Shown here one piece after another: positions 14,409 to 59,657 of a DNA stretch of 64,000 nt. The DNA lies in IMG/VR virus record IMGVR_UViG_3300002141_000152, positions 32,001-96,000 of that record. The stretch is one strand, 5' to 3'. Below the pieces are notes generated by a model. The model had not been told where the DNA came from and searched no databases. It was given only the letters and a program-made list of their open reading frames with translations. Both the position numbers and the translations under genes were made by a program. The first letter of the stretch is position 1, and every line of letters starts with the position of its first letter. Origin of the DNA: a virus.

Positions 14409-14948
14409 TTATTGGTTCGCTGGGGATTCGTCAGTTGATTCTTTTTCAGGAGAATCTTCGGCTTGTGTATTTAATGCTTTTCTAATACTTTCCGCATCCA
14501 TACTAATTGAAATGCTTCGAACATTATCTGAATCTTCCGCGTTTTGAGTAAAATATTCAATTATTTTTTTTAAATTCATATTTAACTTCTCTTCACCGAA
14601 TCCACCAGCTTCTTCGATCTTTTTCTTTAAGTTAGTAGTTGCTTTCCAGCTACCGTTGTAACTAATTGACCAACAATAGAATCGAACATCCTCACCTTTA
14701 CTTTCATAATAGTGCTGCATGTCTTTAATCTTTTGGATTGCTCCATTTGCATCACGATAGGTAGTTGCTCTACCTAATGTATCTGAAGGAACTCCAAACC
14801 GAACAGCATCTGCTAGTATTTCCATCAATTCGGCAATTCGATCAATTATCTGGTCTGCTGTGTAGCCTTTTAACGGACGCTCAATATTACCTGTGCGCTC
14901 CTCTTCTTCTTTAAGGTATTGTAGGAAGGGCTTAATTTCTTTTGCCAT
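14409..14948 (-). CDS. Hypothetical protein with CTS-like leader
   Basis: MAKEIKPFLQYLKEE; late motif directly upstream. Confidence 0.6.
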   Translation of the reverse strand: MAKEIKPFLQYLKEEEERTGNIERPLKGYTADQIIDRIAELMEILADAVRFGVPSDTLGRATTYRDANGAIQKIKDMQHYYESKGEDVRFYCWSISYNGSWKATTNLKKKIEEAGGFGEEKLNMNLKKIIEYFTQNAEDSDNVRSISISMDAESIRKALNTQAEDSPEKESTDESPANQ

Positions 14949-14965
14949 TTTAAAATGGTTTTTTA

Positions 14966-15577
14966 TTATTTATTAAGAATCGGAGTCACCGAAGATAGAC
15001 CGTTAATAAGTTCACAGAATTCTGTGACGCTAGTGGCATCAAACTTATTCATATAGTTGATAAAATGATTGCTCTTTGGCGGCTGGCTAATATATTTACC
15101 GAATTTATCTAATACTTCTTCAAATATCTTTTTTTCTGCTAAATAATTCTCAAAATTACCAAAATAATCTTTTTCTTGCCTAGTTGGTGCGGGCATGTCT
15201 TTTCTAGTCGCATATAACAGCACACAATTTTGATATAACTCTCCAGTTAGAACTTTTTCAAATTCATCGAGCAATCTAGTCTTATCCATTCTTTCACGAT
15301 AGATTGACCATACATATGCTGAAAAAATCGAACGATCAAAGATCAATATCTTATCTTTTAGGATTGTCCGGTTTAGTTCAAGAATAGTTAGGACATTTGC
15401 AATACTAAAGTAGTGCACTCCTGGGCCAGTTTCCTGGTCTCTCATTCCAAGGTCTTCTATGTACTTTGCAAATGCAAATTTATAGTACATGACATCTGGA
15501 TTGGTATTTTGTTTAAAAAATTCATCAAGCAGGAACGTTTTACCGACTGCCCTAGGTCCTTCGATGAATACTATCAT
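14966..15577 (-). CDS. P-loop nucleotide/polynucleotide kinase (dNMP kinase-like)
   Basis: IVFIEGPRAVGKT Walker A; LIFDRS motif. Confidence 0.75.
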   Translation of the reverse strand: MIVFIEGPRAVGKTFLLDEFFKQNTNPDVMYYKFAFAKYIEDLGMRDQETGPGVHYFSIANVLTILELNRTILKDKILIFDRSIFSAYVWSIYRERMDKTRLLDEFEKVLTGELYQNCVLLYATRKDMPAPTRQEKDYFGNFENYLAEKKIFEEVLDKFGKYISQPPKSNHFINYMNKFDATSVTEFCELINGLSSVTPILNK

Positions 15578-16164
15578 ATTAAGTTTATTCGGGTTGATTC
15601 TGAAAGTTTAAAATTTTCAATACGATACATTTTTGACTTATCGACAATGTATAGTTTAATATTTAGATATGGAACTGATCCAATAGGTCGCGTCAGGTAC
15701 CTTGAAGTATTAAGTCTTTCAAAAAAGTCCTGATACTTGCCTAACTGTTCGATTGAATCTTCAAAAACTTGAATTTCTTCAACCTCTGGCCACATTTTTT
15801 CAAATACTTCTTGTAAAGTAGTCGTTTTATTTGACTTTCTTCCTAGAAAGAACATCTCGTCAAACGATATTCCTCGTTTATCAAGGAGTGCAGTAACAGT
15901 TTCCCGTAGTTCTTCAATACGATGCGTTATTAATATTGATCGAGTTGTGTCAGAGGCTTTACCTTCTTTCCAAGCAGCATACACTGGCTCAATAAGCTGA
16001 ATATAATGTGCTTCTTCAGAAATCGATAGCTGATGATCGTAGAAGTCATATGGCGTATCAAATTTTAGAGTATCTGTTTCTACACAAAGTTTGCCAGTGT
16101 AGCTTGGCATTCTAAAAAAAGTTTCGTCAAGGTCAAATACCTGAAGTATCTTTACTTTGTTCAT
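15574..16164 (-). CDS. HAD phosphatase (RNA-repair-like HAD)
   Basis: VFDLDETFF, LITHR, K, VFEDS motifs. Confidence 0.7.
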   Translation of the reverse strand: MNKVKILQVFDLDETFFRMPSYTGKLCVETDTLKFDTPYDFYDHQLSISEEAHYIQLIEPVYAAWKEGKASDTTRSILITHRIEELRETVTALLDKRGISFDEMFFLGRKSNKTTTLQEVFEKMWPEVEEIQVFEDSIEQLGKYQDFFERLNTSRYLTRPIGSVPYLNIKLYIVDKSKMYRIENFKLSESTRINLI

Positions 16165-16218
16165 GGTTGTATGTTTACAATATCTTTTATTGATAAATAA
16201 TAAAAAGTTTTAATCTAG

Positions 16219-16692
16219 GTGAAACAAAAGTTCATAAAACTATTCGAAGAACACACAGCAGACACTGCTCCAACCTGGACAGATATTCGCGATACTATTC
16301 AAATGAAACGTCCATTTGTCATCATTGTTTTTAGAACAGTTGCTAGTTTTAAAGAGGCAGTAGCATCATATTTTAGCGAAACTAGTTATATTAAACAGAC
16401 CGCGATTATTAACAATAACGGAGAGGCTACTAAATATCCAAGTATATTTCTAGCGTTTGACCGAGATAAAGATTATCGATCTGAAGTTAAGAGCATATAT
16501 GAAAAATTCGATATTAAACAAATAATTGTTGGTAAATCTGGTGCTGAATATTCTACGCTATATGCACAAGACGGAACCTCAAGCGATTTTGGAAACGAAA
16601 TTGTCTCAACATTAAGCTCAGACGAATTTAGTACTGAGGACCAATTTAAGATCGGTTCAACTTATTACCATTTTATCGAGTTCGAAGGATAA
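16219..16692 (+). CDS. Hypothetical protein with CTS-like leader
   Basis: MKQKFIKLFEE (GTG start); ATAAATAA at 16193-16200. Confidence 0.6.
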   Translation: MKQKFIKLFEEHTADTAPTWTDIRDTIQMKRPFVIIVFRTVASFKEAVASYFSETSYIKQTAIINNNGEATKYPSIFLAFDRDKDYRSEVKSIYEKFDIKQIIVGKSGAEYSTLYAQDGTSSDFGNEIVSTLSSDEFSTEDQFKIGSTYYHFIEFEG

Positions 16693-16734
16693 ACTTTAGC
16701 TTCTTTTTGAGTATAATACTTTAAAGTTTATAAC

Positions 16735-19549: not shown

Positions 19550-19553
19550 CTTA

Positions 19554-24537: not shown

Positions 24538-24870
24538 ATGAAAAGAATCATGTCACTTAACGAATTTTCAAATTGCAATACAAGTGGCGCGAATCCAGCG
24601 GATGATTCAGTACTTGATGAATTAAATCTTGATGAAACTATGCTTGATGCGTTAGTTGAACTTGTTGGTTCTGAAGAAGAAGTTGCAGAAGCTGCAGAAG
24701 CATCATTTAATGACTTAACCAATTCTTTTGAAAAGAATGAGCTTGAAATGACAGAAGAAGATGTTCCTGAAAAACTTGCAATCGCCGCACTAATCGTTAA
24801 ATTAGTTGAACTTGGTAAAATTGGTCCAGAAGAAGCAGATCAGTTTATTTCAGATCACTTAGAAGATTAA
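24538..24870 (+). CDS. Acidic protein with CTS-like leader
   Basis: MKRIMSLNEF; ATAAATAA at 24511-24518; terminator downstream. Confidence 0.65.
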   Translation: MKRIMSLNEFSNCNTSGANPADDSVLDELNLDETMLDALVELVGSEEEVAEAAEASFNDLTNSFEKNELEMTEEDVPEKLAIAALIVKLVELGKIGPEEADQFISDHLED

Positions 24871-26100: not shown

Positions 26101-27807
26101 ATGAGTGGATTTTTAGACACACCAAGAGGGCGATCTAGTGGTAAATTAGCTGGACTAAGTAAATTCGGTACAAAATACGAAGACTTACTTCTTAAAAACT
26201 CGCAAGCAATTGGTTTCATTGAGAGCCAAATTGCATCTCGATCAACTCGACTAGGTCCTGGTGATGATTTACTTAAATTCTCAATGGCAATTGCCGATAC
26301 TACTTCACAGCTTCGATCAAAGGCAATTGCCTTCTTTCAGTTGGATTACGTAGTAAAACGTGAACGTCTTCGTGATGTTGCATCAAATGGTGAAATAGAA
26401 TTTATCCTTGAAACAATCGTAGATGATATGATTGTAAACGATGATGAAAATCGTTTTTGTTATGCGACTGACTTAACTGGAAAAATCATGTATCGTGGAT
26501 CTACTAAAGAGGAACGACTTAATTTCCAAGAGAAAGTAGTAAAGAGACACGTTGATAATTTCGACAAGATGTATAATGCTTGGGGATTTAGTGGCGGTAT
26601 TTCTGCATGGCAGTATGCATTCCAATTCCTAGTAGAAGGTCACCTGTGTTTTGAAATCATATATAACGATTTACAGAAACCAACTGAAATTATTGGTTTT
26701 AAAGAACTTGACCCTGCAAGTATTGCACCACAGTTACAAAAAGATGCAAAAGGCAAGCTTTTCTTACAGTGGTTACAATATGACCAATCAAATGGAGGAA
26801 CTAGAGTATTAAATGACTCGCAAGTCATCTATATTTCATATGCAAATCACTTTAGAACAAAACGTGTTTCATTTGTTGAACGGCTGATTCGGTCGTTTAA
26901 CTTACTTCGGGTTATTGAACATAGTAAAGTTATTTGGCACGTAATGAATGCGCCAATTCGTTTGACTACAACTGTTCCAGTAGGTTCTAAGAGTTTACAA
27001 AAGAGTCAAGAAGACGTTCGTGAATTTATGAACTTATTAAAAGAAGATATAGGATTTAATGGAGATACTGGTGAATTAACAGTTGATGGTAAACCAAATA
27101 TTTTATTTTATAAGAATTATGTTCTACCTCAAAATGATCAAAATCAATCTGTAAAAATAGAACCGCTACAGATGCCTGGACCAAACTTGTCTGGTTCTGA
27201 ATTACTAAATTACTTCTATAAGAAATTAAAAATGGATTCGAAAATCCCATATTCTCGTTGGGAAGGTCAAAGTGGCATGGGAGCATTTACGCTTAATTCC
27301 GAAGGTATTAGTCGTGAGGAAATTCGTTACCAAAAATTTATTAAACGATTACGTTCTGCATTCTCAGAATTGATGATTAAACCGTGGTACTTACAAATGT
27401 GTTTAGATTTTCCCGAATTAGCTGATGACCATAAATTCGTAAATGCAATCGGTATTACTTATCATAATGATAATGTATTTGAAGAAATTAAAGAAAATGA
27501 AATTGAAGCGAAACGTATAGCATCGTTTACTGCTAAGAAAGGAATCACTAAAGATGACGGAACACCATTCTTCTCAACTGAGTACTTGATTCGTAAAGAA
27601 CTTAAAATGACTGAATCTGAAATTGAAGCAAATCAACAGTGGTTTGATTCAAAAGAGGAAGATGAACCAGATGCAGTTGCTGGTCCAGCAGGCGGTGGAG
27701 CAGCAGGCGGTGGAGGAGCAGCAGGCGGAGCAGCCGCAAGTGCTCCAGCAGAAGGTGGTTCTGAAACGATTGAAGGTGGAGAAACAAAAGGCACAGGTCA
27801 ACTCTAA
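26101..27807 (+). CDS. Portal protein (T4 gp20-like)
   Basis: EIEFILETIVDD, LRVIEHSKVIW...AP, YFYKKL...KIPYSR, ISREEIRYQKFIKRLR. Confidence 0.88.
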   Translation: MSGFLDTPRGRSSGKLAGLSKFGTKYEDLLLKNSQAIGFIESQIASRSTRLGPGDDLLKFSMAIADTTSQLRSKAIAFFQLDYVVKRERLRDVASNGEIEFILETIVDDMIVNDDENRFCYATDLTGKIMYRGSTKEERLNFQEKVVKRHVDNFDKMYNAWGFSGGISAWQYAFQFLVEGHLCFEIIYNDLQKPTEIIGFKELDPASIAPQLQKDAKGKLFLQWLQYDQSNGGTRVLNDSQVIYISYANHFRTKRVSFVERLIRSFNLLRVIEHSKVIWHVMNAPIRLTTTVPVGSKSLQKSQEDVREFMNLLKEDIGFNGDTGELTVDGKPNILFYKNYVLPQNDQNQSVKIEPLQMPGPNLSGSELLNYFYKKLKMDSKIPYSRWEGQSGMGAFTLNSEGISREEIRYQKFIKRLRSAFSELMIKPWYLQMCLDFPELADDHKFVNAIGITYHNDNVFEEIKENEIEAKRIASFTAKKGITKDDGTPFFSTEYLIRKELKMTESEIEANQQWFDSKEEDEPDAVAGPAGGGAAGGGGAAGGAAASAPAEGGSETIEGGETKGTGQL

Positions 27808-30042: not shown

Positions 30043-30489
30043 TTATTGATTTGATCCCGGCCCGCCACCTGAGCCATCGTCACTGAATCTAACACTAGAT
30101 TTATCAACATCGACTGTAAAGCCTTTGTCTCCTAGCATTCTACCCATTGCCCGCTGGTTCTTTTTTGCAATAACTGCATCCTGTTTACCTGCACGTTCCA
30201 TTGATTTATGCATCATCTGGCCAAGTGCTTTTTGTTTTAATTTCTTTTTCCAGTCACTATGAAAAATAAGATTCATAGCTCTGGTAATATCGATATCCTC
30301 AATGGTTCCAGTATATCTACCAGGATTTCGAGCAGCTTTTTCATTTGCAAGTTCCTGTGCGATTGCCATTACTGAAGTATAGACTCCAGCTAGAGCGCTT
30401 TGTACCATGCCAGTAAAGTTAGTCGGGTAAACGACTTCTTTTGTTGCCTCATTAATGAATTCCTGGTATGATTTTAATCTATTTTCCAT
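30043..30489 (-). CDS. Putative internal head protein
   Basis: Leader LKSYQEFINE closely matches T4 CTS MKTYQEFIAE. Confidence 0.65.
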   Translation of the reverse strand: MENRLKSYQEFINEATKEVVYPTNFTGMVQSALAGVYTSVMAIAQELANEKAARNPGRYTGTIEDIDITRAMNLIFHSDWKKKLKQKALGQMMHKSMERAGKQDAVIAKKNQRAMGRMLGDKGFTVDVDKSSVRFSDDGSGGGPGSNQ

Positions 30490-30821
30490 TATGCTGTAGT
30501 GACAGGCGCAGCAGCTTTTGCAGCTTCTGCTTTTTGTTGTTCTTCTTGCTGTTTGGTAGAAGCGGCAGCATCATATGCAGTCTGTAACTTATTAAGTTCA
30601 TCCTGTTTCATAACTGTCTGCTTTTGTAAAGTCAATAATTCATTCTTCTTTAGTTGAAGAGCATCATATTGAGTTCTTAGTGCTGGATCATTTGGAATAG
30701 GGTCAGTTGCACCTTCTTCTTGGACCATTTGTGGATTTGCGCCAATCTTTAATTCAGGAGCAGCCTCTTTTTCTGCGGTTTTCATGAACTTCTTAAAACT
30801 TGAAACATATGATGCTGCCAT
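30489..30821 (-). CDS. Coiled-coil putative head protein with CTS-like leader
   Basis: YVSSFKKFMK; late motif upstream. Confidence 0.6.
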   Translation of the reverse strand: MAASYVSSFKKFMKTAEKEAAPELKIGANPQMVQEEGATDPIPNDPALRTQYDALQLKKNELLTLQKQTVMKQDELNKLQTAYDAAASTKQQEEQQKAEAAKAAAPVTTA

Positions 30822-30842: not shown

Positions 30843-31124
30843 TTATTTTGAAAAATGCTTTGCCGCTTTTCTAAAATCATGGTACGATAATACATTCTTC
30901 TTCTTAATCTTCTTTGGGTTTAATCCGAAGGCGCTGGTTAATCTTCCGCCGCTTAGGAAAGGTGAATTATTCCAGTGTGCTGGAATAGATCCAGATGATC
31001 CTGCATAAAACATCATTGCGCTTGCACGATCGGTAGCTGGGCTCATAATAATATCTGCTGGATCTCGTTCCATTGAATCAGTTCCCATTACTTCAACTAT
31101 ATAGTTTGCAAAGCCACTAACCAT
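30843..31124 (-). CDS. Hypothetical protein with CTS-like peptides at both ends
   Basis: MVSGFANYIVE; VLSYHDFRK. Confidence 0.55.
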   Translation of the reverse strand: MVSGFANYIVEVMGTDSMERDPADIIMSPATDRASAMMFYAGSSGSIPAHWNNSPFLSGGRLTSAFGLNPKKIKKKNVLSYHDFRKAAKHFSK

Positions 31125-38254: not shown

Positions 38255-38659
38255 ATGAAAAAGCATATTATGGAGTATTTTGAAGTCATAAATGAATCAT
38301 TTGGCGTGGGTTCAGTCATCTTAATTAATGGTAAAGCAGAAGACTCCGGAAAAAAGTTATATGCTACACATATTGTCGGCAGCGCTGAACTTAATCCAGG
38401 GGCAACTATGCTATTCTTATCTGACGATTTTTATCGTATTAAGAAAGACGGTGAAAAATTAAAAGCTGTAAGAATTGGTTTCTCAAATGAGGCTGCTCTA
38501 AAATCTGCACTAAAAGTATCTTCAGCGGGTAGAATAAGTATTATCAAAAACAATAATAAAACCCCATTCCATTGGATTACTCTAAAACATAAAGTACTAC
38601 ACACTGCACTTCATGCAGTTGAGGAAGTTTTAAATAAAGATAATTATATACTCGAATAA
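38255..38659 (+). CDS. Hypothetical protein with CTS-like leader
   Basis: Start corrected to MKKHIMEYFEVINE; ATAAATAA at 38228-38235. Confidence 0.6.
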   Translation: MKKHIMEYFEVINESFGVGSVILINGKAEDSGKKLYATHIVGSAELNPGATMLFLSDDFYRIKKDGEKLKAVRIGFSNEAALKSALKVSSAGRISIIKNNNKTPFHWITLKHKVLHTALHAVEEVLNKDNYILE

Positions 38660-43047: not shown

Positions 43048-43100
43048 TAAACGTTTCTTATTTTTATTATTTATCAGGAAGATAGTATAGTAATTTTATC

Positions 43101-43559
43101 ATGAAGCATATTGGTTTTACAAAAGTGGCACTTCCTTATGGGTGGCTTGGTAATATGTCCGCCTTTCCAATTGAGTATTGTGGGCAGACTTGGAAGACAA
43201 GTGAAGCTCTTTTTCAAGCATTACGATTTAATGACCTTGAAATTAAGGCAAAAATCCGGTCACAGCAGAGTCCAATGGCTGCAAAGATGGTAGCTAAGCC
43301 ATTTGCAGATAAACAAGTAGTACAACCAAAATCTGAACAGGATTTAAAAAATATGGAACTGTGTCTTAAACTCAAATTAGACCAGCACCCAGAACTAAAG
43401 AAATTACTGAAGGAAACCGGAGATGCTATTTTATTTGAAGATGTGCGTGCTAGACCTCGAGGTAATAATCTCTTTTGGGGAGCTATCCTAACCGTTGATG
43501 AGTTGATTGGTGAAAATAAATTGTGTGAAATCTGGATGAGATTGCGAGCTAATCTCTAA
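43101..43559 (+). CDS. NADAR/YbiA-family protein
   Basis: YGWLGNMS.FPI, TSEALFQA.RF, LKLDQHPEL...L.ETGD, FWG, GENKL. Confidence 0.85.
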   Translation: MKHIGFTKVALPYGWLGNMSAFPIEYCGQTWKTSEALFQALRFNDLEIKAKIRSQQSPMAAKMVAKPFADKQVVQPKSEQDLKNMELCLKLKLDQHPELKKLLKETGDAILFEDVRARPRGNNLFWGAILTVDELIGENKLCEIWMRLRANL

Positions 43560-43872
43560 ACTTATTTGGCCAAATACTACGCCATTCATGTCCCTTTGGC
43601 ACGTCTTTAACTTTGACTCCAAATACTTTCTTTTCTCCTGGATCACACGCATCTTTACCATCCCAACTGAAACCATTATTACACGCCCAGCTCTTTAAAA
43701 AGACAGTAACTAATTGTCCTGACACAAATGGAAATCTGACACCGCTTTGATTATCAACCTCTTCAATTTTACCATGTCTTACTGTGATTATGATATCGCG
43801 ACCCTGTCGTGATGTTAGAGTTATAATCTTTTCAGAACTCCAGTTTTCAAATAGTTTAACGTACTGTTTCAT
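43549..43872 (-). CDS. Hypothetical protein with CTS-like leader
   Basis: MKQYVKLFENW. Confidence 0.6.
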   Translation of the reverse strand: MKQYVKLFENWSSEKIITLTSRQGRDIIITVRHGKIEEVDNQSGVRFPFVSGQLVTVFLKSWACNNGFSWDGKDACDPGEKKVFGVKVKDVPKGHEWRSIWPNKFRD

Positions 43873-43949: not shown

Positions 43950-45506
43950 CTAGGAGATATCTCCCCTAAGGTCATTTACTGCAATATCATTTGCTCCCAT
44001 GTGAGAGCCTGCACTCTTTGAATAGTTAACAGCCGCAATCATTTTCTTCTTTGCGTTTAAATTATTGGATCCACCGGCTGAATTCTCTCCGCCAGTATAA
44101 TAGTATTTTACTGTGTCCGGAAAGTCGGCTGTGAGTTTTGTATAGAAATTCTCAGTATTTGCGTTTTGCCCTATCCAAATGTCAACTAGATAAATTGCGG
44201 CCCATTCGGATGCAGCTACTTTAGCTAGCAAGCTCATCCCAGGTAAATATCCGCCAGAGAATAGGTATAGAATCTTTTTAGCCGGAGTTAAGTTTAAACC
44301 AGATATTTCAGACCAGGCTTTAGCGCCGTCTATTTTTGAAGAATTTGCAATAAATGTTGTTGCTTTTGATAAAGTATCCTCTTTAAAATAGTCATACATA
44401 TAAGAACCGCTTGATCTTCCACCGACATCAATTCCACCGAATACAACAATTAACGGCGCTGACTTATTTGAATTAATATTGATTTTTCCTTGAGAAAGAG
44501 TTTGTGTGTAGTTAGGCAAACCCACCTGATTAACTTGATTAACTTGTGTAGGCGAGGCTTTCGCAATTACCTCAGGAGAAATTTGAACACCAAAGAGTGC
44601 ACCATATGTGATAGGTCCAACTATTCCGTCTACTTTAAGCGGTGCACCAGATGTATCTTTATTTTCAGATTGAAATTTTCTTACTGCCTGGTCGGTCGCA
44701 GCATCATAATTACCAGATTGAGTTACACCAAGCTTTGCTTGAACTTTAGTTACCTCTTCTCCCTGCATACCTAATTTTAATAATTTTGCTCCAGATTTAA
44801 TTTGTGCCATATTAATATCTTGGTTATTTGCTGTTGTAGGTGAATCAATATTATCCTTTGTATCTGCTGAAAAATCGGTTTTTTGATTAGTAAGTGTTTG
44901 ACTTATAGTATTTTCAAATTTTTCATCGCGGCTTCCTTTAAAATAATCAATGAATCCAATTAAAGAATTAGCGCTTAACTCTCTTTTGTTGATTCCAACT
45001 CTATCTCCTTCTCCAGATAACTGGTCATTTGTATTTCCTTCAATTGACTTAAATGATCTATTTGTAATATCGACTGAAACTACTATTCCGGTGTGTCCTG
45101 TTCCCTTTCCAGGTCGACTCATAATAAATATTTGTCCGGGTTTTACTAATCCTGGATTTTTTCTGGCAGCATCTATTGTTATTTTTAGTGATGAGTCAGC
45201 TTTGCTCCAGTGATTCAGTACACCTGCAGTTTTAGGCAAAGTGTTTGAAATGCCTAATGCTGAAGAAAGATCGCTAAACATTGAATAAACAAAAGCCATA
45301 CACCATGGATATCCAGGACCAAGTCCTGTGGCGCTTAAGTATTTGCTTACTTCTGGTCCTTTATTTGAACCCTTTGGCTGCTCTTTTACTTGGTAATTTG
45401 ATTTTAATATTTCTGCAAAGCGATCGCCTGCAACAGCTGGAGTATCTATTGATAATGCAGTCTCATATAATCGCTTCCAGTTTTTATAATTAAGTAGTAC
45501 TCCCAT
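43950..45506 (-). CDS. CHAP amidase plus peptidoglycan-binding domain plus alpha/beta-hydrolase-like domain, with CTS-like leader
   Basis: PWCMAFV, GHTGIV, IEGNT; VRKFQ...LKVDGIVGPIT; LFSGG. Confidence 0.82.
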   Translation of the reverse strand: MGVLLNYKNWKRLYETALSIDTPAVAGDRFAEILKSNYQVKEQPKGSNKGPEVSKYLSATGLGPGYPWCMAFVYSMFSDLSSALGISNTLPKTAGVLNHWSKADSSLKITIDAARKNPGLVKPGQIFIMSRPGKGTGHTGIVVSVDITNRSFKSIEGNTNDQLSGEGDRVGINKRELSANSLIGFIDYFKGSRDEKFENTISQTLTNQKTDFSADTKDNIDSPTTANNQDINMAQIKSGAKLLKLGMQGEEVTKVQAKLGVTQSGNYDAATDQAVRKFQSENKDTSGAPLKVDGIVGPITYGALFGVQISPEVIAKASPTQVNQVNQVGLPNYTQTLSQGKININSNKSAPLIVVFGGIDVGGRSSGSYMYDYFKEDTLSKATTFIANSSKIDGAKAWSEISGLNLTPAKKILYLFSGGYLPGMSLLAKVAASEWAAIYLVDIWIGQNANTENFYTKLTADFPDTVKYYYTGGENSAGGSNNLNAKKKMIAAVNYSKSAGSHMGANDIAVNDLRGDIS

Positions 45507-49403: not shown

Positions 49404-49982
49404 TTAAGTATTAAACTTATTGAAGTAATCTTTCTTCGTTCGGTGTTTTGCCGGAAAGTCTCTACTTTCAAAGTCAAGATGGTCAACTGCCCACTGCATC
49501 GCTTTGGTGTAGAATTCAGGATGTGACATCTCAGCTGGAAATATTTTAATTGTGTCATCCATTGAACCGATGCGATTTCGATATGTACCCGTGTGCATCT
49601 CTTGTCTTTTTGGAGTCATGCGTCGAACTCGTCTAACATCACCAAAAAATCCTATACCGTATTCTGTATGACGATTATATCCTGGTTTTGCAAAAACAAT
49701 ATTTCCACGACTCAATTGTAGTGGCGACGAGCTCACTTCTAAACCTAGGGCAAGTAGTGCCCGTGCTCCAGGAGTTTCTAGTGCCGCCTTGACTTCAGGT
49801 AAAAGTAGGTGTTTACCGCCTTCTCCCCTAAGCATAGCAGCACGGTGTAAAGCTGTAGCCTCTCGCCTAAACTCAGCACGATCAATTAGTCCGAGATCAA
49901 TAAGCGACTGTAATACTTCTAATTGAGTTTCAATACTTGGCTCGCTAGATTCATTAATAAATTGACTAAATCCTTTTATCAT
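49404..49982 (-). CDS. CTS plus SHOCT-like plus variable domain protein
   Basis: MIKGFSQFINE; LQSLIDLGLIDRAEF. Confidence 0.6.
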   Translation of the reverse strand: MIKGFSQFINESSEPSIETQLEVLQSLIDLGLIDRAEFRREATALHRAAMLRGEGGKHLLLPEVKAALETPGARALLALGLEVSSSPLQLSRGNIVFAKPGYNRHTEYGIGFFGDVRRVRRMTPKRQEMHTGTYRNRIGSMDDTIKIFPAEMSHPEFYTKAMQWAVDHLDFESRDFPAKHRTKKDYFNKFNT

Positions 49983-49999: not shown

Positions 50000-50836
50000 T
50001 TATTTATTTGAGATACTATGTGTCACATCCTGAATACGAATATTCCAGATTACCATTAGCTCACGGTGTAAGTCATCAATAAGATGAGGTATATCGCGTT
50101 CACTAAAGAAGTCAAGATTTAGTGAATAAGAATTATGCCGACCACCTCCACCTTCAATTGAATTGATTTGAATATCCTTTGCGCGTAATATCTTTGCTAA
50201 GATCGGTTTAAGATCAACATCGCATCCCTCAGCATTAAAATGGATTAGTGTAGCCACATCAGGTTTTAGGAAACTAGGTCTGAAACCAACGGCTTCATCC
50301 AAAGGATTTGGCCATTCGAGTGGCTCGTCAAAAATATCATTACCATTACAGCTAATAAATGAAAATACTCGACCTAAAAGCCCTGTTAGTGATTGGCGTA
50401 GCTCTTCAAGATTATTTTTGCGATTATAATATAGATCAAACCTTGCAAAAACTCGCATAGCATAATTAGTCACTTCTGACTCATCTTCTTCGTCACCCTG
50501 TTCCCAATGGTCCCCTTCCACCCAATCATCAATATCAATACTACCCGGATCAATAAGACTATTCTCTGGTGTGATCGACCCATCAGCCAACCACCCATTT
50601 AGTAGATCGAGTGCTTCGGTTGAGTTATGCCCTGCTGCCCAACCCCAATCGAATTCAAGTTCAATATGGAATGTTGCATACTGATCTGGATCAAGGTCAA
50701 ACTGAAGTTTAGCATATTCGCTTTGAGAAATTAGACCAGTTTTCAATAAGTCAGCTAATACTTGTAATTGATCTTCTCTCGATGACTGAGGCTCAGAGTT
50801 CTCAAATAGTCCAAGATATTTCTTGATATATTTCAT
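50000..50836 (-). CDS. CTS plus SHOCT-like plus variable domain protein
   Basis: MKYIKKYLGLFE; LADLLKTGLISQSEY. Confidence 0.6.
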   Translation of the reverse strand: MKYIKKYLGLFENSEPQSSREDQLQVLADLLKTGLISQSEYAKLQFDLDPDQYATFHIELEFDWGWAAGHNSTEALDLLNGWLADGSITPENSLIDPGSIDIDDWVEGDHWEQGDEEDESEVTNYAMRVFARFDLYYNRKNNLEELRQSLTGLLGRVFSFISCNGNDIFDEPLEWPNPLDEAVGFRPSFLKPDVATLIHFNAEGCDVDLKPILAKILRAKDIQINSIEGGGGRHNSYSLNLDFFSERDIPHLIDDLHRELMVIWNIRIQDVTHSISNK

Positions 50837-50843: not shown

Positions 50844-51311
50844 TTATTTATTAAGAGAGACATATTTAAAAATAGATTTTGGAAAGGTTTCTATCCATTT
50901 TAATAGTATATCAAGTTGGATGCTTGATCTGAATACGAGGTCAGCCTGTGCCCTGCATCGAAGATCTCGATTCATCTGCATTTCTCCTTCCCAAAAATCG
51001 TCTCCACTCCACGAGTCAACCCGTATTGAATCCGGATCCACAAACGAACCTGCTGGCGGTGCGCTTAGATCACATAATTGCTTAACTAAAAATTCCCGCG
51101 CCTCTTCCGAGGTTCCAGCCTGCTCATATGCCCAGTCCCACCAAAATTCAACCTTGATTTTCTTGCGATCATAAAGTTGAGGTTCAAATTCTGACATGTA
51201 CTTGTGATATTCAAGTTCACTGATTAGTCCAAGACGTAGCAGATCTTCAACTACTTCTCCCTGACTAAGATCATCAGAGTGTACTTCATATAATCTAATA
51301 TGTTTCATCAT
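50844..51311 (-). CDS. CTS plus SHOCT-like protein, paralog of neighbour
   Basis: MKHIRLYE; VEDLLRLGLISELEY; shares EF.W.WA and S..DP.SI.V/ID.W.G with 50000-50836. Confidence 0.6.
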   Translation of the reverse strand: MMKHIRLYEVHSDDLSQGEVVEDLLRLGLISELEYHKYMSEFEPQLYDRKKIKVEFWWDWAYEQAGTSEEAREFLVKQLCDLSAPPAGSFVDPDSIRVDSWSGDDFWEGEMQMNRDLRCRAQADLVFRSSIQLDILLKWIETFPKSIFKYVSLNK

Positions 51312-53661: not shown

Positions 53662-54201
53662 ATGCAACATATTAAATTATTTGAGAATTTCCAGGATTCT
53701 AGCTGGAATGAGTCATTTCGAACTCTTGCAAAATTAGCTAAGCCAATAACTAAAAATCAGTTTATTCGGTGGAATGATGATACATCTCTTCCTGAAGAAG
53801 GCTGGGAAGCCCTAATACAATTCTTTATTAAAGGCGGCGTTATTGATAATAAAGATAGAATAGCAAAGGAACTTGGAGAAGAAAGTAGTCAAGATGTCGT
53901 TGACTTACTTAACCTTGGATTAATTAATTGGGATGATATGCTCGATATACTTGATGTTAATATTATGCTTCTTGAAGGAGAAACTTTTCCAATGGATGTA
54001 ATAATGAATAACCAAATAATGGATTTTTATAATTATGATATATGGAATGCTCCTAATGAAGGTAAACAGATTTATGCTGATCCGGCGGATAATCTTGAAA
54101 TTTTTGCTACTACGATTAATAATGTAAAATTATGCCAAATTCGAATTGATTCGTATAGTGTTATATGCTTTTCTTCCAACTTTGAAAAATATTTAAAATA
54201 G
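53662..54201 (+). CDS. Acidic protein with CTS-like leader and internal SHOCT-like motif
   Basis: MQHIKLFENF; VVDLLNLGLINWDD. Confidence 0.6.
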   Translation: MQHIKLFENFQDSSWNESFRTLAKLAKPITKNQFIRWNDDTSLPEEGWEALIQFFIKGGVIDNKDRIAKELGEESSQDVVDLLNLGLINWDDMLDILDVNIMLLEGETFPMDVIMNNQIMDFYNYDIWNAPNEGKQIYADPADNLEIFATTINNVKLCQIRIDSYSVICFSSNFEKYLK

Positions 54202-54231: not shown

Positions 54232-55707
54232 CTATTTGGTGTCTACATAACCAAGTTCTCTTAAAATATCTTTTTCCTGAGCTATTGCATTTTTTATTTG
54301 AGGTGGCAGTTTTGTAATTGAACTACTTGCACGATGCACCATTTTGAATTTTTGAATAGTTGACGTAAGAATTGACTGTAATTCTGTTTCGGTTAACTCA
54401 CCCAATAACTCTTTTAATACTTGTGCTGAAAACTTAGATAGTACTCCGTATTGTATATAAAAAGTGACTACTTGTTTACGCGACATACCAGATTTTATCC
54501 TACCTCGAATAATAGACAGCACGACTTCCATTATTTTCAGGTTATTTTGCAGGTCTACTAAATAACTATTCTTAAGAATACTGAATAATAATGCTTCTGG
54601 AGTAGATGCATCTATTTTTAAGTCAGTAACTATGTTTTTAATTCCCACCTCATTTTGAAACTCTCCAATTACAGTTGAAACAAGTTTTTCAGGATAACCC
54701 AAGTCAGTCAGATGCTTGGCTGGATCTTCTGACTTTACAATATATTTGTCATTAATATCATGTGAAGTGCGTACCTTTCCACTGTAATAAATCGTTGTAC
54801 CAGTCAGGAAGAGAGGATCACTTGGCTCGATTCCAAAATTAAAAATATTTAGTTGTACTCCATCTCTTGCATAACTCGTAAATGAACCACGATTAATACA
54901 CCAGTTTGCAATAGCACAAAGTTTTTTTTGTGAGTCTTCAGTACGGACACTCAATACTAAATATTGGTCATCTGAGTAAACAATACCGGCTTCGGGTTCA
55001 AGTGCTTCAAGTTCAGCAATTTTTTTACTTAGCCCTAAATTAGAATAACCCTTTACATAATTTGAAGTATAGGCAATCACATCTTTAATAGTCCAGCTAG
55101 TAAACGCTTTAATCTTTTCAAATAATCGGTTAATTGCAGAGGTACCGATGTCTTTTAGCTGAACAGCCAGTGTAATTACCGTTGCCTGTTCTGACTTTGA
55201 CATGGCACGATATTGATCGCGTAGAGGTTTTGGTAAACCATCAATAAACCATTTTGCATCTTTGGCTCTTTCTAGTGTTCTAATTTCATCGGCCATCGCT
55301 TCAAATCCAGTAATGGTAGTACCCTCTTCACTTTTTTGACTCGCATAGTAGTCAATATTGTGTTCTAGCTGCGAAATAATATGTTTTTTATCTTTAATAA
55401 TCGACATCAGTCTATCAAGACTCTTTACCTCATTTTCGTTTGCAGGCTGAGTGATAGCGATCTTCTGTTCAAAGTAGAATCTTAAAAATGCTAAAGTATA
55501 ACCGGGGTGACCCTTAGTAAGATCAAATATTTGTTTTACTACAGGAGAAGAGAGAGCCGTTTTTTCTAGCTCTTCAGAAGAAATCTGAACACCTTCTTCT
55601 CGTTTTTTAGAAATTTTTTTAGAAATTACTGATATCACATATTGTTTCGCTAATTTAGTATTTTCGTTGATTGGTACCCAGTGAGTATATGAAATAATAT
55701 GGCGCAA
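54232..55707 (-). CDS. Hypothetical protein with CTS-like leader
   Basis: MRHIISYTHWVPINE; LC...NWCI motif; late motif at 55725-55732. Confidence 0.6.
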   Translation of the reverse strand: MRHIISYTHWVPINENTKLAKQYVISVISKKISKKREEGVQISSEELEKTALSSPVVKQIFDLTKGHPGYTLAFLRFYFEQKIAITQPANENEVKSLDRLMSIIKDKKHIISQLEHNIDYYASQKSEEGTTITGFEAMADEIRTLERAKDAKWFIDGLPKPLRDQYRAMSKSEQATVITLAVQLKDIGTSAINRLFEKIKAFTSWTIKDVIAYTSNYVKGYSNLGLSKKIAELEALEPEAGIVYSDDQYLVLSVRTEDSQKKLCAIANWCINRGSFTSYARDGVQLNIFNFGIEPSDPLFLTGTTIYYSGKVRTSHDINDKYIVKSEDPAKHLTDLGYPEKLVSTVIGEFQNEVGIKNIVTDLKIDASTPEALLFSILKNSYLVDLQNNLKIMEVVLSIIRGRIKSGMSRKQVVTFYIQYGVLSKFSAQVLKELLGELTETELQSILTSTIQKFKMVHRASSSITKLPPQIKNAIAQEKDILRELGYVDTK

Positions 55708-56213: not shown

Positions 56214-56684
56214 ATGAAACATATTAAATTATTTGAAACCTTTGAATTAAGGCCATACAATATTGTTCTAAAGATAACATCAAACTTTACTAGTAATTAT
56301 AAAAATTATGAACCTTGGCGTTCAGAATTGCTATATGACGCAAAAATAGATGGAGATAATGTTTTATATCACCCAGGATACTTTTACGAAAATAAAAAAG
56401 AGTTTATGCTTGGATGGACATCAGAGAATAAAAACACCGAAAGGGACCAAATTATAATGAGGATATTACCAGGCAATAGGTTAAGGTATCGTATATATGT
56501 TGGTAAGAATATTTGGGACACAAGCACCACACCCGCTAATTCCAGAAAAGATGCTCCAAACCAGTATAAAAAGTCTAGAGATGATGAAAAAAGTCATTCT
56601 TACCAGTATCATGGATCATTTAAAAAGTTAGAAAAAGGATCCACAGATGATAGAGGTTACTTTATTATAGAGGACATAGAATAA
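56214..56684 (+). CDS. Hypothetical protein with CTS-like leader
   Basis: MKHIKLFETFE. Confidence 0.6.
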   Translation: MKHIKLFETFELRPYNIVLKITSNFTSNYKNYEPWRSELLYDAKIDGDNVLYHPGYFYENKKEFMLGWTSENKNTERDQIIMRILPGNRLRYRIYVGKNIWDTSTTPANSRKDAPNQYKKSRDDEKSHSYQYHGSFKKLEKGSTDDRGYFIIEDIE

Positions 56685-56899: not shown

Positions 56900-57247
56900 T
56901 TAAATATCGGGATTAATTGGCATCGGTAATTCAATACCAATTCGTTTACCAGGTAGTACTTCAGCAACCTTGTCAAAAAATAGTGTGTTCGCCTTTACAA
57001 AATCTTCAGCATACACTGATGCTAAAATTGTTCCTTTTGCAGTGTCAGTTAATTTAATATATGTCGCAAATTGGTCTTTCCAAACACAAACCTTATATGG
57101 GGTGTTGGTTCCTGTTCCACCCGTTCCTGTACTACTATTACATAACGGATTTTGAGATGTCGGCTGTTGTTTAGTAGGTTGTGCTGCCGGCTGACTCTCT
57201 TCATGTAGGTTAGTTTCGTTGATCCACTGCTTAAATGACTTAATCAT
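56900..57247 (-). CDS. Hypothetical protein with CTS-like leader
   Basis: Start corrected to MIKSFKQWINETNL. Confidence 0.6.
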   Translation of the reverse strand: MIKSFKQWINETNLHEESQPAAQPTKQQPTSQNPLCNSSTGTGGTGTNTPYKVCVWKDQFATYIKLTDTAKGTILASVYAEDFVKANTLFFDKVAEVLPGKRIGIELPMPINPDI

Positions 57248-57347: not shown

Positions 57348-57890
57348 TTATTCGTATCCATTTTTCATTTTTATTAAAAATATATAATCACTACCTTCTT
57401 CACCAATGTATTCAATTGTTGTTTTCATAAACGTTTTATGACGCCCATTATTTGAAAAATTTAATAAATTACTATTTTCAATTTTGTTTGTTAGGTAATT
57501 TGTAAGTTCATCAAGGTCTTTAGTTTTTTTCTCAAGTTCACTTGATATTTCTTCAGGGAAACTATGTGAATTTTTATAAATTGCTAACTTCATTTTGTAT
57601 TCCGATATTGAGTCACTGTCGTTTGTTATTTTTACGGAATCAGGAACAAGATACCTGTCTAGTCGAACATCTTTTAGATGTTCGACCATTACACTTTTTT
57701 TACGTTCTTCTTCTTGTTTTTTATTTTCTATCCTATTCTTCTCATCATCTTCCGTGTGTCTATTGTTCCAGGCATCGCCAAGATATTTTTGTTGGTCTAA
57801 CCATGTTTGGTTATCCTCATTCAGTAAACCAACCTTTCTTTGTTCATATAGGTTAGTTTCGTTGATCCACTGCTTAAATGACTTAATCAT
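57348..57890 (-). CDS. Hypothetical protein with CTS-like leader
   Basis: MIKSFKQWINETNL, same leader as neighbour. Confidence 0.6.
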   Translation of the reverse strand: MIKSFKQWINETNLYEQRKVGLLNEDNQTWLDQQKYLGDAWNNRHTEDDEKNRIENKKQEEERKKSVMVEHLKDVRLDRYLVPDSVKITNDSDSISEYKMKLAIYKNSHSFPEEISSELEKKTKDLDELTNYLTNKIENSNLLNFSNNGRHKTFMKTTIEYIGEEGSDYIFLIKMKNGYE

Positions 57891-58212
57891 AACACTAATA
57901 TTTTAATTTATTTATCACTCCCACTCGGCCACTAACTAATAAAATAGAGAAGGTAAAGTGGCAGACAGCCCTAATAATTCTACTACTCATATTATTATCA
58001 ACGCTAGAGAGACTACACTAGACCAGAGTCACCCAGCTAGAAGAGACTCGGTAGAACCACCTAGTAGCAGCCAAGTCAGGTACCTTCACTACGGAGTCCC
58101 GGCTACCAAGAGACCGACTAGACCTAGGAGACCCGACACCGAAGGTTACACCTCCACTACGGAGTCCAGTGACCAGACACTAGTCGGCCATTGACCAGTC
58201 ACCATACCAGGA

Positions 58213-58290
58213 GTCGCCAACCCTAATACGAGACGGTGGCCAACCTCAATACGAGAAGTCGCCAACCTCAATACCTGGCAGCGCCCTAAT
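58213..58290 (+). repeat. Iteron-like tandem repeats, period 22-23 bp
   Basis: GCCAACC(CT/TC)AATAC at 58216, 58239, 58261, plus partial fourth copy. Confidence 0.8.
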
Positions 58291-58456
58291 TTGTAATGCA
58301 AAGCGCGGGCGTCCGCCTACTTTCACTACGGAGTCCCAAGAAAAACGCGTGCCACCGACTATCAACACTTGCCACCTGTGGCATGTTGCTACCAGGTGCT
58401 ACTCTTTCCAGATTGTGGCATGCTCGGCGGGATAAATAAAAAGAAAGAAGTAACTT

Positions 58457-59146
58457 ATGTACGCAAACGAAGCAATCGACTTGCTGGGGTGCAGCTATAA
58501 CGGCCTACGTAAGTGGGGCAGCCGTGGCAAGATACGCCGGTGGAAGGACGACCATGGCAAGTGGATCTATAACGACGATGACGTCTGGTCGATGATCGGC
58601 AAGCGGGTCTCAAAAGAAAGCCTGACGACCATCTACTGTCGAGTAGCCGGGACTACGGAGTCCGACCGCAAGGTCATGGCCGAGCAGCAGCGGATACTCC
58701 ACCAATGGTGCTCTGCTCGTGGACTCTCAGTAGACAGGCAGTACGAGGACTGGGCCCCATCTACGGAGTACTCCCTGGAGGAGAGACCTGGTCTGCACCT
58801 CTTGCTACAGGATATAATTCAAAAGCGTGTCTCCGCCGTGGTGGTCGAGACTCCTGACAGGCTGGCTCGTATTGGTCGAGAGTTGATCGAACAGCTCTGC
58901 CGTTACTACGGAGTCCAGCTCGTGTATGTAAATAGGGTGATTCAAAAACCCGAGTACCTAGCCGAGCAGGAGGCAGATATTCTCAGGCTCCTAAAGAAGG
59001 CCAAGATTGAGAGACTAGCTGAGGTTGGTGTCGAGACCCTGCCTAGACCAAAGAAGGTAAAGTTAAAGGATCCAGGCAAGATTGTGCCGACTTGGGAGGG
59101 TGAACCCTTACCTGCTAATTCGCGAGACTTGAGTGACTTGATATAA
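58457..59146 (+). CDS. IS607-TnpA-like MerR-HTH plus serine-recombinase-fold protein lacking the catalytic Ser
   Basis: EAIDLLGCSYNGLRKW...GKI; IYCRVAG (canonical YARVS); RPGL..LL; VVVETPDRLARIG. Confidence 0.82.
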   Translation: MYANEAIDLLGCSYNGLRKWGSRGKIRRWKDDHGKWIYNDDDVWSMIGKRVSKESLTTIYCRVAGTTESDRKVMAEQQRILHQWCSARGLSVDRQYEDWAPSTEYSLEERPGLHLLLQDIIQKRVSAVVVETPDRLARIGRELIEQLCRYYGVQLVYVNRVIQKPEYLAEQEADILRLLKKAKIERLAEVGVETLPRPKKVKLKDPGKIVPTWEGEPLPANSRDLSDLI

Positions 59147-59162
59147 TTCAATTTTGGAGAAA

Positions 59163-59657
59163 TTAAAGAAGAGAGGAATCATGTACAAAGATAAAATCAA
59201 AGGTCAGCACAGAGTCAATTTCGCTGTGGCCATAGAGAGCCTGCTGAATTGCAGTGTCTAGGTCTTCCTCCGCTAGATCACTTGCGATGGTTAAGATAAA
59301 TTTATAGAGAGGCTTGCCATAGTAAAGAGATCGATACTTGTCGGATCTAGTCCCCTCTGATCCCTCAAACTGGACGTCGGAGACGAGACTCCGGTCGACA
59401 GTAGAGACGCTGTCTGCAACAAGTTCAACAAACTGGTCGATGTCTATTTCTTCTAGTGGCAAATTGTGCCGCATGCGAACGCCAAGAGTGACCTTGTACC
59501 TCCACTCAAAATCTTCTGATTGGAGTGGAATCCCGGACTCCTTAGCTAGGGTAACGTATTCACTCTTGCTAATGAGTCCACTGGTTAAGAGGTCACGTAA
59601 GACCTGCTCCTCGTCGTCTCGTGATTCCCGAAGATACCTCTTAAATGACTTTAACAT
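59163..59657 (-). CDS. CTS plus SHOCT-like plus variable domain protein
   Basis: MLKSFKRYLRE; LRDLLTSGLISKSEY. Confidence 0.6.
   Translation of the reverse strand: MLKSFKRYLRESRDDEEQVLRDLLTSGLISKSEYVTLAKESGIPLQSEDFEWRYKVTLGVRMRHNLPLEEIDIDQFVELVADSVSTVDRSLVSDVQFEGSEGTRSDKYRSLYYGKPLYKFILTIASDLAEEDLDTAIQQALYGHSEIDSVLTFDFIFVHDSSLL

What the first reader, a model, noticed from the sequence alone, without database searches (positions are those of the whole stretch)
14409..59657. About 25 unrelated proteins share a T4-like capsid-targeting leader: a large putative injected proteome
Seen: leaders such as LKSYQEFINE (30489), FLKSFSNFINE (43047), IKGFSQFINE (49982), IKSFKQWINE (57247, 57890), LKSFKRYLRE (59657), HIKLFENF (53662), HIKLFETFE (56214), YVKLFENW (43872), FIKLFEE (16219), VYSFSQWLTE (37728), IKPFLQYLKE (14948), IISYTHWVPINE (55707) and IMEYFEVINE (38255). 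Most follow an ATAAATAA motif, while the replication and metabolism genes lack both features. Known: T4 internal proteins carry the leader MKTYQEFIAE, which directs them into the prohead and is cleaved after Glu by the gp21 protease; T4 has only a few such proteins. Inference: this phage packages and injects dozens of cargo proteins (anti-defence or host takeover), identifiable from the leader alone.
Basis: partly seen in the sequence, partly recalled or inferred. Interest (0 to 1): 0.8.

Follow-up and report, generated by a model that had tools for sequence, protein, structure and literature searches.

The report
Capsid-loading leader on ~20 phage proteins
An uncultured, roughly 250-kb T4-like phage puts a ten-residue N-terminal tag, almost the same as the one phage T4 uses to load proteins into its head, on 16 to 24 otherwise unrelated late proteins. 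They are therefore probably packed into the capsid, trimmed by the head protease and partly delivered with the DNA, but none of this has been measured.

Summary
All 14 quoted leaders sit at the stated coordinates, 1-5 residues after a start codon. A scoring matrix trained only on one protein family from related contigs ranks five window N-termini as the top 5 of 120,126 six-frame positions. The same matrix also picks out T4 IpII and IpIII.

I count 16 firm leader genes, plus 7-8 that orthologues support. Most sit behind an ATAAATAATAAAAA late-type motif (Fisher p about 1e-6).

The contig encodes a gp21-type protease with its His and Ser kept, fused to a scaffold, and T4-type capsid and portal proteins. 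The scaffold's eleven 14-residue repeats carry the same seven-residue word as the leaders.

The conserved leader positions match the T4 residues reported to drive targeting (4 and 7) and processing (8 and 10).

Leaders persist in 107 of 120 and 18 of 18 homologues of two cargo families. They also move with their promoters as DNA cassettes.

Packaging and cleavage are strong inferences. Injection and anti-defence roles are untested, and several small acidic conserved members look like head-core parts.

This is an enlarged variant of the T4 capsid-targeting system. This scan has reported similar leaders on other uncultured T4-like genomes.

The parts
14409..14948 (-). Leader gene A (179 aa). Class 1 leader with predicted cut after residue 14. 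Conserved in relatives at 63-74% identity.
   Evidence: late motif at 14960-14973
16219..16692 (+). Leader gene B (157 aa, GTG start). Class 2 leader (I-K-L-F-E type). The G001 orthologue carries a class 1 leader at the same place.
   Evidence: late motif at 16193
24538..24870 (+). Weak candidate (110 aa, acidic). Its own leader is degenerate, but orthologues carry a clear F-x-x-Y-K-L-N-E leader.
26101..27807 (+). T4 gp20-type portal protein. It has no leader and anchors the head module.
   Evidence: PF07230, E 2.8e-61
30043..30489 (-). Leader gene C (148 aa, basic). Its leader is the closest to the T4 CTS and it is second in an operon. It occurs in 57 related loci.
30489..30821 (-). Small core-type protein (110 aa). 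It has an aromatic-pair leader without a canonical I-x-E. Orthologues read K-S-F-K-S-F-Q-N-A-E.
30843..31124 (-). Small basic protein (93 aa) with a class 1 leader (F-x-x-Y-I-V-E). Orthologues alternate with an M-R-L-K-R-L-V-E type leader.
31126..31578 (-). Acidic protein (150 aa) with an R-R-L-L-E type leader. Probably a prohead core or scaffold component.
32623..33285 (-). Very acidic protein (220 aa). It has a conserved N-terminal F-x-x-F leader and an internal leader word at residues 141-150.
   Evidence: (rank 7)
35933..36961 (-). Two-module protein (342 aa): an acidic module, an internal leader word (cut predicted after residue 231), then a Lys-rich module of pI 10.1. In L013 that second module is a stand-alone late gene headed by the leader.
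36988..37728 (-). Leader gene D (246 aa): a Pol-beta-fold nucleotidyltransferase with invariant G-S and D-x-D. The leader (residues 1-13) is disordered in the model.
38255..38659 (+). Leader gene E (134 aa), class 1.
   Evidence: (rank 11)
39729..41081 (-). Candidate (450 aa) with an F-x-x-F word at residues 12-15 and an I-F-E cut site. Conserved in three relatives.
   Evidence: (rank 17)
41551..43047 (-). Leader gene F (498 aa), class 1. All 18 database homologues keep the leader and the E|G-A junction. It also has an internal leader word near residue 381.
43061..43074 (-). Example of the late-type promoter motif ATAAATAATAAAAA, 13 nt upstream of the start codon of gene F.
43549..43872 (-). 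Leader gene G (107 aa), class 2. The leader is conserved in three relatives.
43950..45506 (-). CHAP peptidase plus peptidoglycan-binding protein (518 aa). It has a Y-x-x-W ... L-Y-E leader, and the G004 orthologue has a canonical class 1 leader.
49404..49982 (-). Leader gene H (192 aa): class 1 leader followed by a SHOCT-like module.
   Evidence: rank 2
50000..50836 (-). Leader gene I (278 aa from the promoter-proximal ATG): leader followed by a SHOCT-like module.
50844..51308 (-). Leader gene J (154 aa): class 2 leader followed by a SHOCT-like module.
   Evidence: I1
53662..54201 (+). Leader gene K (179 aa), class 2. Its promoter-leader cassette is duplicated at 56202-56236 (34 of 35 nt).
   Evidence: D2, D4
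54232..55707 (-). Leader gene L (491 aa, TTG start). The aromatic pair and the I-N-E cut site are separated by two residues, and by up to 17 in orthologues.
56214..56684 (+). Leader gene M (156 aa), class 2.
56900..57247 (-). Leader gene N (115 aa), class 1. Its leader cassette is almost identical in DNA to that of gene O, while the cargo differs.
   Evidence: D1
57348..57890 (-). Leader gene O (180 aa), class 1.
   Evidence: D1
59163..59657 (-). Leader gene P (164 aa): class 1 leader (L-R-E) followed by a SHOCT-like module.

Best explanation
The shared N-terminal peptide is a capsid-targeting and processing propeptide of the T4 type. It has two separable parts. One is an aromatic pair spaced i, i+3, usually preceded by hydrophobic-Lys, which is the proposed targeting part. 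The other is [I/L/V]-x-Glu followed by a small residue, which is the proposed cut site.

The tagged genes are transcribed late. I infer that the leader helix docks the protein onto the assembling scaffold core, because it copies the seven-residue word repeated eleven times in the phage's own scaffold. The gp21-family protease, which is fused to that scaffold, would then remove the leader after the Glu. Internal copies of the word would act as joints at which multi-module proteins are cut.

I infer two groups. The conserved small proteins beside the portal gene (several strongly acidic) are mainly core or scaffold parts. The variable proteins at 41-60 kb, the nucleotidyltransferase, the CHAP peptidase and the Lys-rich module stay in the head and leave with the DNA.

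What is shown: the motif, its position, its statistics, its conservation, its late context, the protease, the scaffold repeats and the T4 cross-match. What is inferred: docking, cleavage, retention and injection.
For: - **Position and statistics.**
- **T4 cross-match.** The matrix trained on this clade gives T4 IpII and IpIII 21.5 bits, the top 2 of a 16-kb T4 locus. The T4 CTS is MKTYQEFIAE (PMC8442874). Some relatives read K-T-Y-Q-E-F-I-N-E, and one has F-I-A-E.
- **Critical residues.** In T4, residues 4 and 7 matter for targeting and 8 and 10 for processing (PMC9026906). These are exactly the conserved leader positions here.
- **Head machinery.** An S77 protease domain is present. It matches 5JBL at E 5e-6, and its His79 and Ser134 align with T4 His85 and Ser140. 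A gp23-type capsid protein and a gp20-type portal are present.
- **Shared word.** The word aromatic-x-x-aromatic-[ILVM]-x-E has 28 hits in 33,842 residues. Ten are in the protease-scaffold fusion and eight are in leaders. In T4 the same word marks only IpII, IpIII and the gp23 maturation site.
- **Scaffold.** The scaffold repeats are conserved in relatives and predicted to form one long helix.
- **Leader retention.** The leader is kept in 107 of 120 D-family and 18 of 18 F-family homologues. In the D model, residues 1-13 are disordered and the fold starts right after the Glu.
- **Interchangeability.** Leader classes swap on one orthologous cargo.
- **Joint.** A module that follows an internal leader word here is a stand-alone, leader-headed late gene in L013.
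- **Mobility.** Promoter-leader cassettes are duplicated at DNA level onto different cargo.
Against: - There is no virion proteome, no N-terminal sequence and no cultured phage, so packaging, cleavage and injection are all unmeasured.
- Class 2 leaders lack [ILV]-x-E at the canonical place. Their cut site (L-F-E) is a guess supported only by a conserved P-[LI]-F-E in the capsid protein propeptide.
- Some leader proteins are small, acidic and conserved, which fits scaffold or core roles rather than cargo.
- The closest large relative, G001, has only 5-6 leader genes, so a large set is not needed for growth.
- The scaffold model has low confidence (pLDDT about 50).
- No function could be assigned to most cargo.
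Confidence: 0.72

Rival explanations
1. Assembly-only reading. The leader marks proteins that co-assemble with the scaffold core and are then degraded or expelled, as with T4 gp22, gp67 and gp68. Few or none would be delivered to the host.
For: Five small leader genes lie beside the portal gene and are conserved across relatives; three of them (24538, 31126, 32623) have mature pI near 4. The leader word equals the scaffold repeat. T4 core proteins are also gp21 substrates (PMC5694885).
Against: Ten leader genes at 41-60 kb are variable or unique among close relatives, which is unlike assembly parts. The cargo includes a conserved nucleotidyltransferase with intact catalytic motifs, a CHAP peptidase and a Lys-rich basic module like the T4 Ips. 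These proteins have few or no further cut-site words inside, so they would survive the protease.
Confidence: 0.15
2. The peptide is a docking or amphipathic helix for some other late process, such as a chaperone, membrane attachment or another virion part. Its likeness to the T4 CTS would then be convergent.
For: The leader is short and amphipathic. Ten residues can converge. No direct link to the head has been measured.
Against: The match to T4 covers the four positions known to be functional, not only the composition. The same word fills this phage's own scaffold and, in T4, the gp23 cut site. There is no hydrophobic signal-peptide core. Tail and baseplate-region late genes lack the leader.
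Confidence: 0.08
3. The motif has no protein-level function. It would be carried along with duplicated late-promoter cassettes, or would act at RNA level on translation of short-leader late mRNAs.
For: Some promoter-leader cassettes are near-identical in DNA. Lys codons after the start codon are common in well-translated genes (my own knowledge).
Against: Most leaders differ at synonymous sites while keeping the residues. The leader persists down to 31% identity of the cargo and in 107 of 120 homologues. Abundant late structural genes, namely capsid protein and portal, lack it.
Confidence: 0.03

Closest known systems
Phage T4 internal proteins IpI, IpII, IpIII and their capsid targeting sequence (Mullaney and Black 1996, as summarised in PMC9026906 and PMC8442874)
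   Same: Both have a leader of about 10 residues with an aromatic pair and I-x-E. Both have late genes, a gp21-family protease and cargo unrelated beyond the leader. The matrix from this clade recognises T4 IpII and IpIII.
   Different: This window has 16-24 tagged genes against 3 (plus Alt) in T4. There are at least three leader classes. Targeting and cutting parts can be spaced apart. Internal copies act as joints. The leader copies a 14-residue scaffold repeat, whereas T4 gp22 has no such word.
Polymorphic ip loci of T-even phages (Repoila et al. 1994, cited in PMC12373910; at least 10 Ip families, three shown to block GmrSD-type restriction enzymes)
   Same: Both have variable cargo behind a constant leader in plastic loci. 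The constant 5' end offers a recombination handle.
   Different: Those phages are close relatives of T4 infecting enterobacteria. This is an uncultured clade of about 250 kb whose portal is nearest (31-38% identity) to huge phages. No target of any cargo here is known.
Inner-body and ejection proteins of phiKZ, 201phi2-1 and SPN3US (PMC5694885, PMC7411985)
   Same: Many head proteins are processed by a gp21-related protease after x-x-Glu, and many are ejected.
   Different: Their propeptides are mostly 80-160 residues long and are not a shared short leader. Here the leader has T4 length and T4 sequence.
T4 Alt ADP-ribosyltransferase
   Same: Alt is an enzyme carried in the head behind a short N-terminal propeptide. 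The tagged nucleotidyltransferase (36988-37728) and CHAP peptidase (43950-45506) would be counterparts.
   Different: The folds and chemistry differ, and Alt's leader is not of the aromatic-pair type.
Nested protease-scaffold genes such as lambda C/Nu3 (from my own knowledge)
   Same: A protease and a scaffold share one reading frame. An internal late motif and an ATG lie at residue 243 of the fusion.
   Different: The protease here is of the T4 S77 family. Separate expression of the scaffold part is only inferred.

Membership tests
T4-type CTS-directed head proteins | N-terminal leader of about 10 residues with aromatic residues at the positions equivalent to T4 residues 4 and 7 | tested here: met
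   T4 mutagenesis summary in PMC9026906
T4-type CTS-directed head proteins | [I/L/V]-x-Glu processing site at positions 8-10 of the leader | tested here: met
   Met for the 10 class 1 leaders. Class 2 leaders (six genes) lack it at that place and have L-F-E instead.
T4-type CTS-directed head proteins | gp21-family (Peptidase_S77) prohead protease with catalytic residues present | tested here: met
   PF03420, E 6e-13. 5JBL, E 5e-6. His79 and Ser134 align with T4 His85 and Ser140, the two positions that differ between native gp21 and the crystallised chain.
T4-type CTS-directed head proteins | T4-type major capsid protein, portal and scaffold core | tested here: met
   PF07068, E 5e-35. PF07230, E 2.8e-61. 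Helical repeat scaffold.
T4-type CTS-directed head proteins | Late expression | tested here: inconclusive
   The leader is linked to a T4-late-like motif that also precedes head genes. Only weak gp55-like hits were found in two relatives (E 1e-4 and 5e-3). There are no transcript data.
T4-type CTS-directed head proteins | Cargo unrelated beyond the leader and encoded in variable loci | tested here: met
   All-against-all BLAST; presence or absence in five relatives; 64 clusters across the clade
T4-type CTS-directed head proteins | Physical presence in proheads and removal of the leader | not testable with these tools
   The phage is uncultured and no proteome is available.
T4-type CTS-directed head proteins | Delivery into the host with the DNA | not testable with these tools
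   Inference only.
Anti-restriction Ip proteins (Ip1-3 type) | Sequence or fold likeness to Ip1, Ip2 or Ip3, or a known defence target | tested here: not met
   No Pfam or PHROG match for nearly all cargo. Nothing links them to GmrSD.

The most novel reading that the evidence does not exclude
A widespread clade of uncultured T4-like phages of about 250 kb has turned the T4 capsid-targeting peptide into a general, recombination-mobile address label. The label is one unit of the scaffold's own 14-residue repeat. It works at N-termini and as a cuttable joint inside multi-module proteins. It is attached to roughly 40 or more cargo families across the clade, including enzymes. If so, the packaged and injected proteome of uncultured phages can be read from sequence alone.
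Probability: 0.45. Interest if true: 0.7.

Novelty: new variant of a known kind. Interest (0 to 1): 0.6.

Why it matters
Proteins that travel inside the capsid act before any phage gene is expressed. That makes them prime candidates for first-strike counter-defence, as shown for T4 Ip1-3.

A short leader that can be scored from sequence gives a way to list such proteins in uncultured phages. Here it yields 16-24 in one 46-kb stretch and dozens of families across the clade, almost all without known function.

The identity between the leader and the scaffold repeat also offers a concrete, testable idea of how a capsid-targeting peptide is recognised. As far as I know, that is still unclear for T4.

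The system could also widen the range of leaders usable for loading foreign proteins into phage heads.

Tried and rejected
- **De novo motif search.** A home-made EM run on all N-termini recovered a K-x-F-x-x-aromatic motif. Its likelihood was not clearly above the shuffled and internal controls. I dropped it in favour of the matrix trained on relatives.
- **DNA search in the phage collection.** Megablast of 9.5 kb found nothing.
- **RNA genes.** No tRNAs were found in the window.
- **Cargo annotation.** Pfam and PHROGs gave almost nothing for 26 proteins.
  - The ESM Atlas gave only weak phosphoribosyltransferase-like leads for the 498-aa protein and nothing for the 491-aa protein.
  - Foldseek placed the 246-aa protein among Pol-beta nucleotidyltransferases (CD-NTase- and ANT-like), but with low TM-scores, so I name no subfamily.
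- **More distant huge phages.** I looked for the leader around the portal genes of LR756500 and Lak-B4. There were only three weak N-terminal aromatic-pair hits in LR756500 and none in Lak. I make no claim there.
- **Late sigma factor.** The gp55 search gave only weak hits in two relatives.
- **Scaffold repeat scoring.** My first attempt to score the repeats with the 10-mer matrix used the wrong register. I rely on the regex counts from that call instead.
- **Unavailable paper.** Repoila et al. 1994 is not held, so I cite it only through PMC12373910.
- **Blocked script.** I redid it from files.

Full report
**What the DNA is.** The window is bases 32,001-96,000 of a 108,970-bp IMG/VR viral contig, 36% G+C, rated about 43% complete.
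- It encodes a T4 gp20-type portal (26101-27807, PF07230, E 2.8e-61). It also encodes a UvsW-like helicase, a family B polymerase fragment, a primase and a ribonucleotide reductase.
- Upstream of the window lie a gp23-type capsid protein and a Peptidase_S77 (gp21-type) protease inside a 655-residue reading frame.
- The portal is nearest (31-38% identity) to huge uncultured phages and Lak phages.
- IMG/VR holds 73 related loci with 69-100% portal identity, on contigs up to 207 kb rated 81% complete. The genome is therefore about 250 kb.

**The observation.**
- A loose core pattern hits 12 real N-termini in the contig. All lie between window positions 14.9 and 59.7 kb, and none lies at an N-terminus elsewhere.
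- As a fairer test I built a position matrix from 20 distinct leaders of one family only (orthologues of gene 30043-30489), taken from related contigs, and scanned all six frames.
  - The top 5 of 120,126 positions are that gene plus four unrelated N-termini (49982, 57247, 57890, 43047).
  - Further leaders rank 11, 35 and 44.
- Codon third positions differ between leaders, so selection acts on the peptide.
- I count 16 firm leader genes.
  - Ten are class 1: hydrophobic-K-x-[F/Y]-x-x-[F/W/Y]-[I/L/V]-x-E.
  - Six are class 2: I-K-L-F-E-x-aromatic.
- Orthologue N-termini raise seven more (24538, 30821, 31124, 31578, 33285, 41081, 45506) to leader-bearing, and 36961 is likely.

**Link to late genes.**
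- ATAAATAA is three times over-represented.
- The full motif ATAAATAATAAAAA ends 10-13 nt before start codons. It also precedes the protease-scaffold gene and other structural genes.
- It precedes 11 of 14 firm leader genes against 18 of 128 other ORFs (p 1e-6).
- None of 16 genes behind a different, early-type motif has a leader.
- Only weak gp55-like matches were found, and only in relatives. 'Late' therefore rests on the T4-like motif and its company.

**Likeness to the T4 signal.** The T4 CTS is MKTYQEFIAE, cut once after the Glu (PMC8442874).
- The matrix trained on this uncultured clade gives T4 IpII and IpIII 21.5 bits. These are the two best positions in a 16-kb T4 locus, and IpI scores 6.7.
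- Amber-suppressor work summarised in PMC9026906 places targeting mainly at residues 4 and 7 and processing at residues 8 and 10. Those are the Tyr, Phe, Ile and Glu that correspond to the four conserved leader positions here.
- The residue after the predicted cut is mostly small (A, S, T, G), as in the T4 proteins read.

**The machinery.**
- The first 242 residues of the 655-residue frame match the T4 gp21 structure 5JBL (E 5e-6).
- His79 and Ser134 align with T4 His85 and Ser140, the two positions at which the crystallised chain differs from native gp21.
- Residues 289-442 form eleven 14-residue repeats, each carrying aromatic-x-x-aromatic-[I/L/V/M]-x-E. They are conserved in four relatives and predicted, at low confidence, as one 157-residue helix.
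- An internal late motif and an ATG at residue 243 suggest the scaffold is also made on its own.
- The seven-residue word occurs 28 times in the contig's 33,842 residues. Ten are in this protein and eight are in leaders.
- In the T4 proteins tested, the same word hits only the IpII and IpIII leaders and residues 59-65 of gp23, which end at the known maturation cut. T4 gp22 has none.
- I therefore propose that the leader is one scaffold repeat unit, co-assembles with the scaffold helix, and is cut by the same rule. This step is inference.

**Conservation and mobility.**
- The 246-residue protein at 36988-37728 has over 1,000 homologues. Of the 120 listed, 107 carry the leader word within the first ten residues. 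Most of the rest are 215-residue gene calls that start at an internal Met.
  - Its model (pLDDT 87) is a Pol-beta-type nucleotidyltransferase with invariant G-S and D-x-D.
  - Residues 1-13 are disordered and the fold begins just after the Glu.
- All 18 homologues of the 498-residue protein keep the leader and an invariant E|G-A junction down to 31% identity.
- Within single orthologous families the leader class can switch. The aromatic pair and the cut site can be up to 17 residues apart, which fits two separable functions.
- Promoter-leader cassettes are duplicated almost exactly in DNA onto unrelated cargo: 57195-57261 with 57838-57904, and 53650-53684 with 56202-56236.
- Five large relatives carry about 5 to 13 leader genes each.
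- Over all clade sequence on hand, 233 leader ORFs fall into 64 clusters, including some false positives.

**Joints.** Three proteins have internal leader words. In the 342-residue protein at 35933-36961 the word precedes a Lys-rich module (32 Lys of 111 residues, pI 10.1). In locus L013 that module is a stand-alone late gene with the leader at its N-terminus. This supports cutting at internal words. The module resembles the basic T4 internal proteins in composition only.

**Two kinds of tagged proteins.**
- Genes A-E and G, and the small genes beside the portal, are conserved across relatives. Three of the small portal-side genes (24538, 31126, 32623) have mature pI near 4.1, and this portal-side set is most simply read as core or scaffold parts.
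- Ten genes at 41.5-59.7 kb are variable or unique. Apart from a SHOCT-like module shared by four of them, they are unrelated to each other. These, with the nucleotidyltransferase, the CHAP peptidase and the Lys-rich module, are the best candidates for delivered cargo.
- No function can be assigned to most of them.

**Comparison with what is known.**
- The concept is established for T4 and the T-even phages: a constant leader, polymorphic cargo, at least 10 Ip families, three of them anti-restriction (PMC3012670, PMC12373910).
- PhiKZ-like phages package many processed proteins, but behind long propeptides (PMC5694885).
- I found no paper in the held library describing this leader in an uncultured clade of this kind.
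- What differs here is the scale, several leader classes, internal joints, the fused protease-scaffold, and the leader-scaffold repeat identity.
- This scan has reported comparable leaders on other uncultured T4-like and megaphage genomes, so the phenomenon seems general. I did not check those reports.

**Verdict.** The targeting-and-cleavage reading is well supported by sequence evidence (about 0.7). Injection and anti-defence roles are open. I rate this a new variant of a known kind, with interest 0.6.

Noticed in passing
window 30489-30821, 24538-24870, 32623-33285, 35933-36961: A short G-A-N-P motif recurs 10-25 residues after N-terminal leaders, or 2-12 residues before internal leader words, and also in orthologues. 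Its meaning is unknown. It may be part of the joint or a second recognition element.
   Followed up: no
contig 17662-19629 (window -14338 to -12371), minus strand: The protease and scaffold share one 655-residue frame. An internal late-type motif lies 58 nt before an ATG at residue 243, which suggests nested expression of a separate 413-residue scaffold.
   Followed up: partly
window 20273-21856, minus strand: A 527-aa HNH/Mom-like homing-endonuclease ORF (PHROG 3339, E 1.5e-116) is absent from all five large relatives. It lies just upstream of a 480-aa family B polymerase fragment.
   Followed up: no
window 28247-29242, minus strand: A 331-aa ORF beside the portal gene has no counterpart in any of the five relatives. 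It may be an insertion.
   Followed up: no
window 51581-51718 and contig 15306-15521: A 45-aa ORF behind a late motif is a truncated copy of the 71-aa gene that lies next to the capsid protein gene. Both begin with an F-x-x-W-G-S-E word that resembles the leaders.
   Followed up: no
contig 96000-108000 (beyond the window's 3' end) and window 60204-63500: Many small genes sit behind a different conserved upstream motif (TTATATTTACT ... TTAAAAC), probably an early or middle promoter. None of them has the leader.
   Followed up: partly
L119 (LR756500.1, 41.5 kb around its portal gene): Three ORFs of 218-440 aa begin with weak aromatic-pair-x-x-E peptides. This hints that a related leader may exist in that 462-kb phage.
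   Followed up: partly
T4 gp21 residues 66-71 (L118) and residues 60-66 of the window phage's protease: Both proteases carry a leader-like word (D-Y-I-N-E and G-Y-L-N-E) at aligned positions inside the protease domain. It could be an autoprocessing site or only structural.
   Followed up: no
window 58000-60000: G+C rises to about 50% around an ORF (58457-59146) that other notes of this scan call an IS607-type recombinase relic. It sits behind a late-type motif but has no leader.
   Followed up: no
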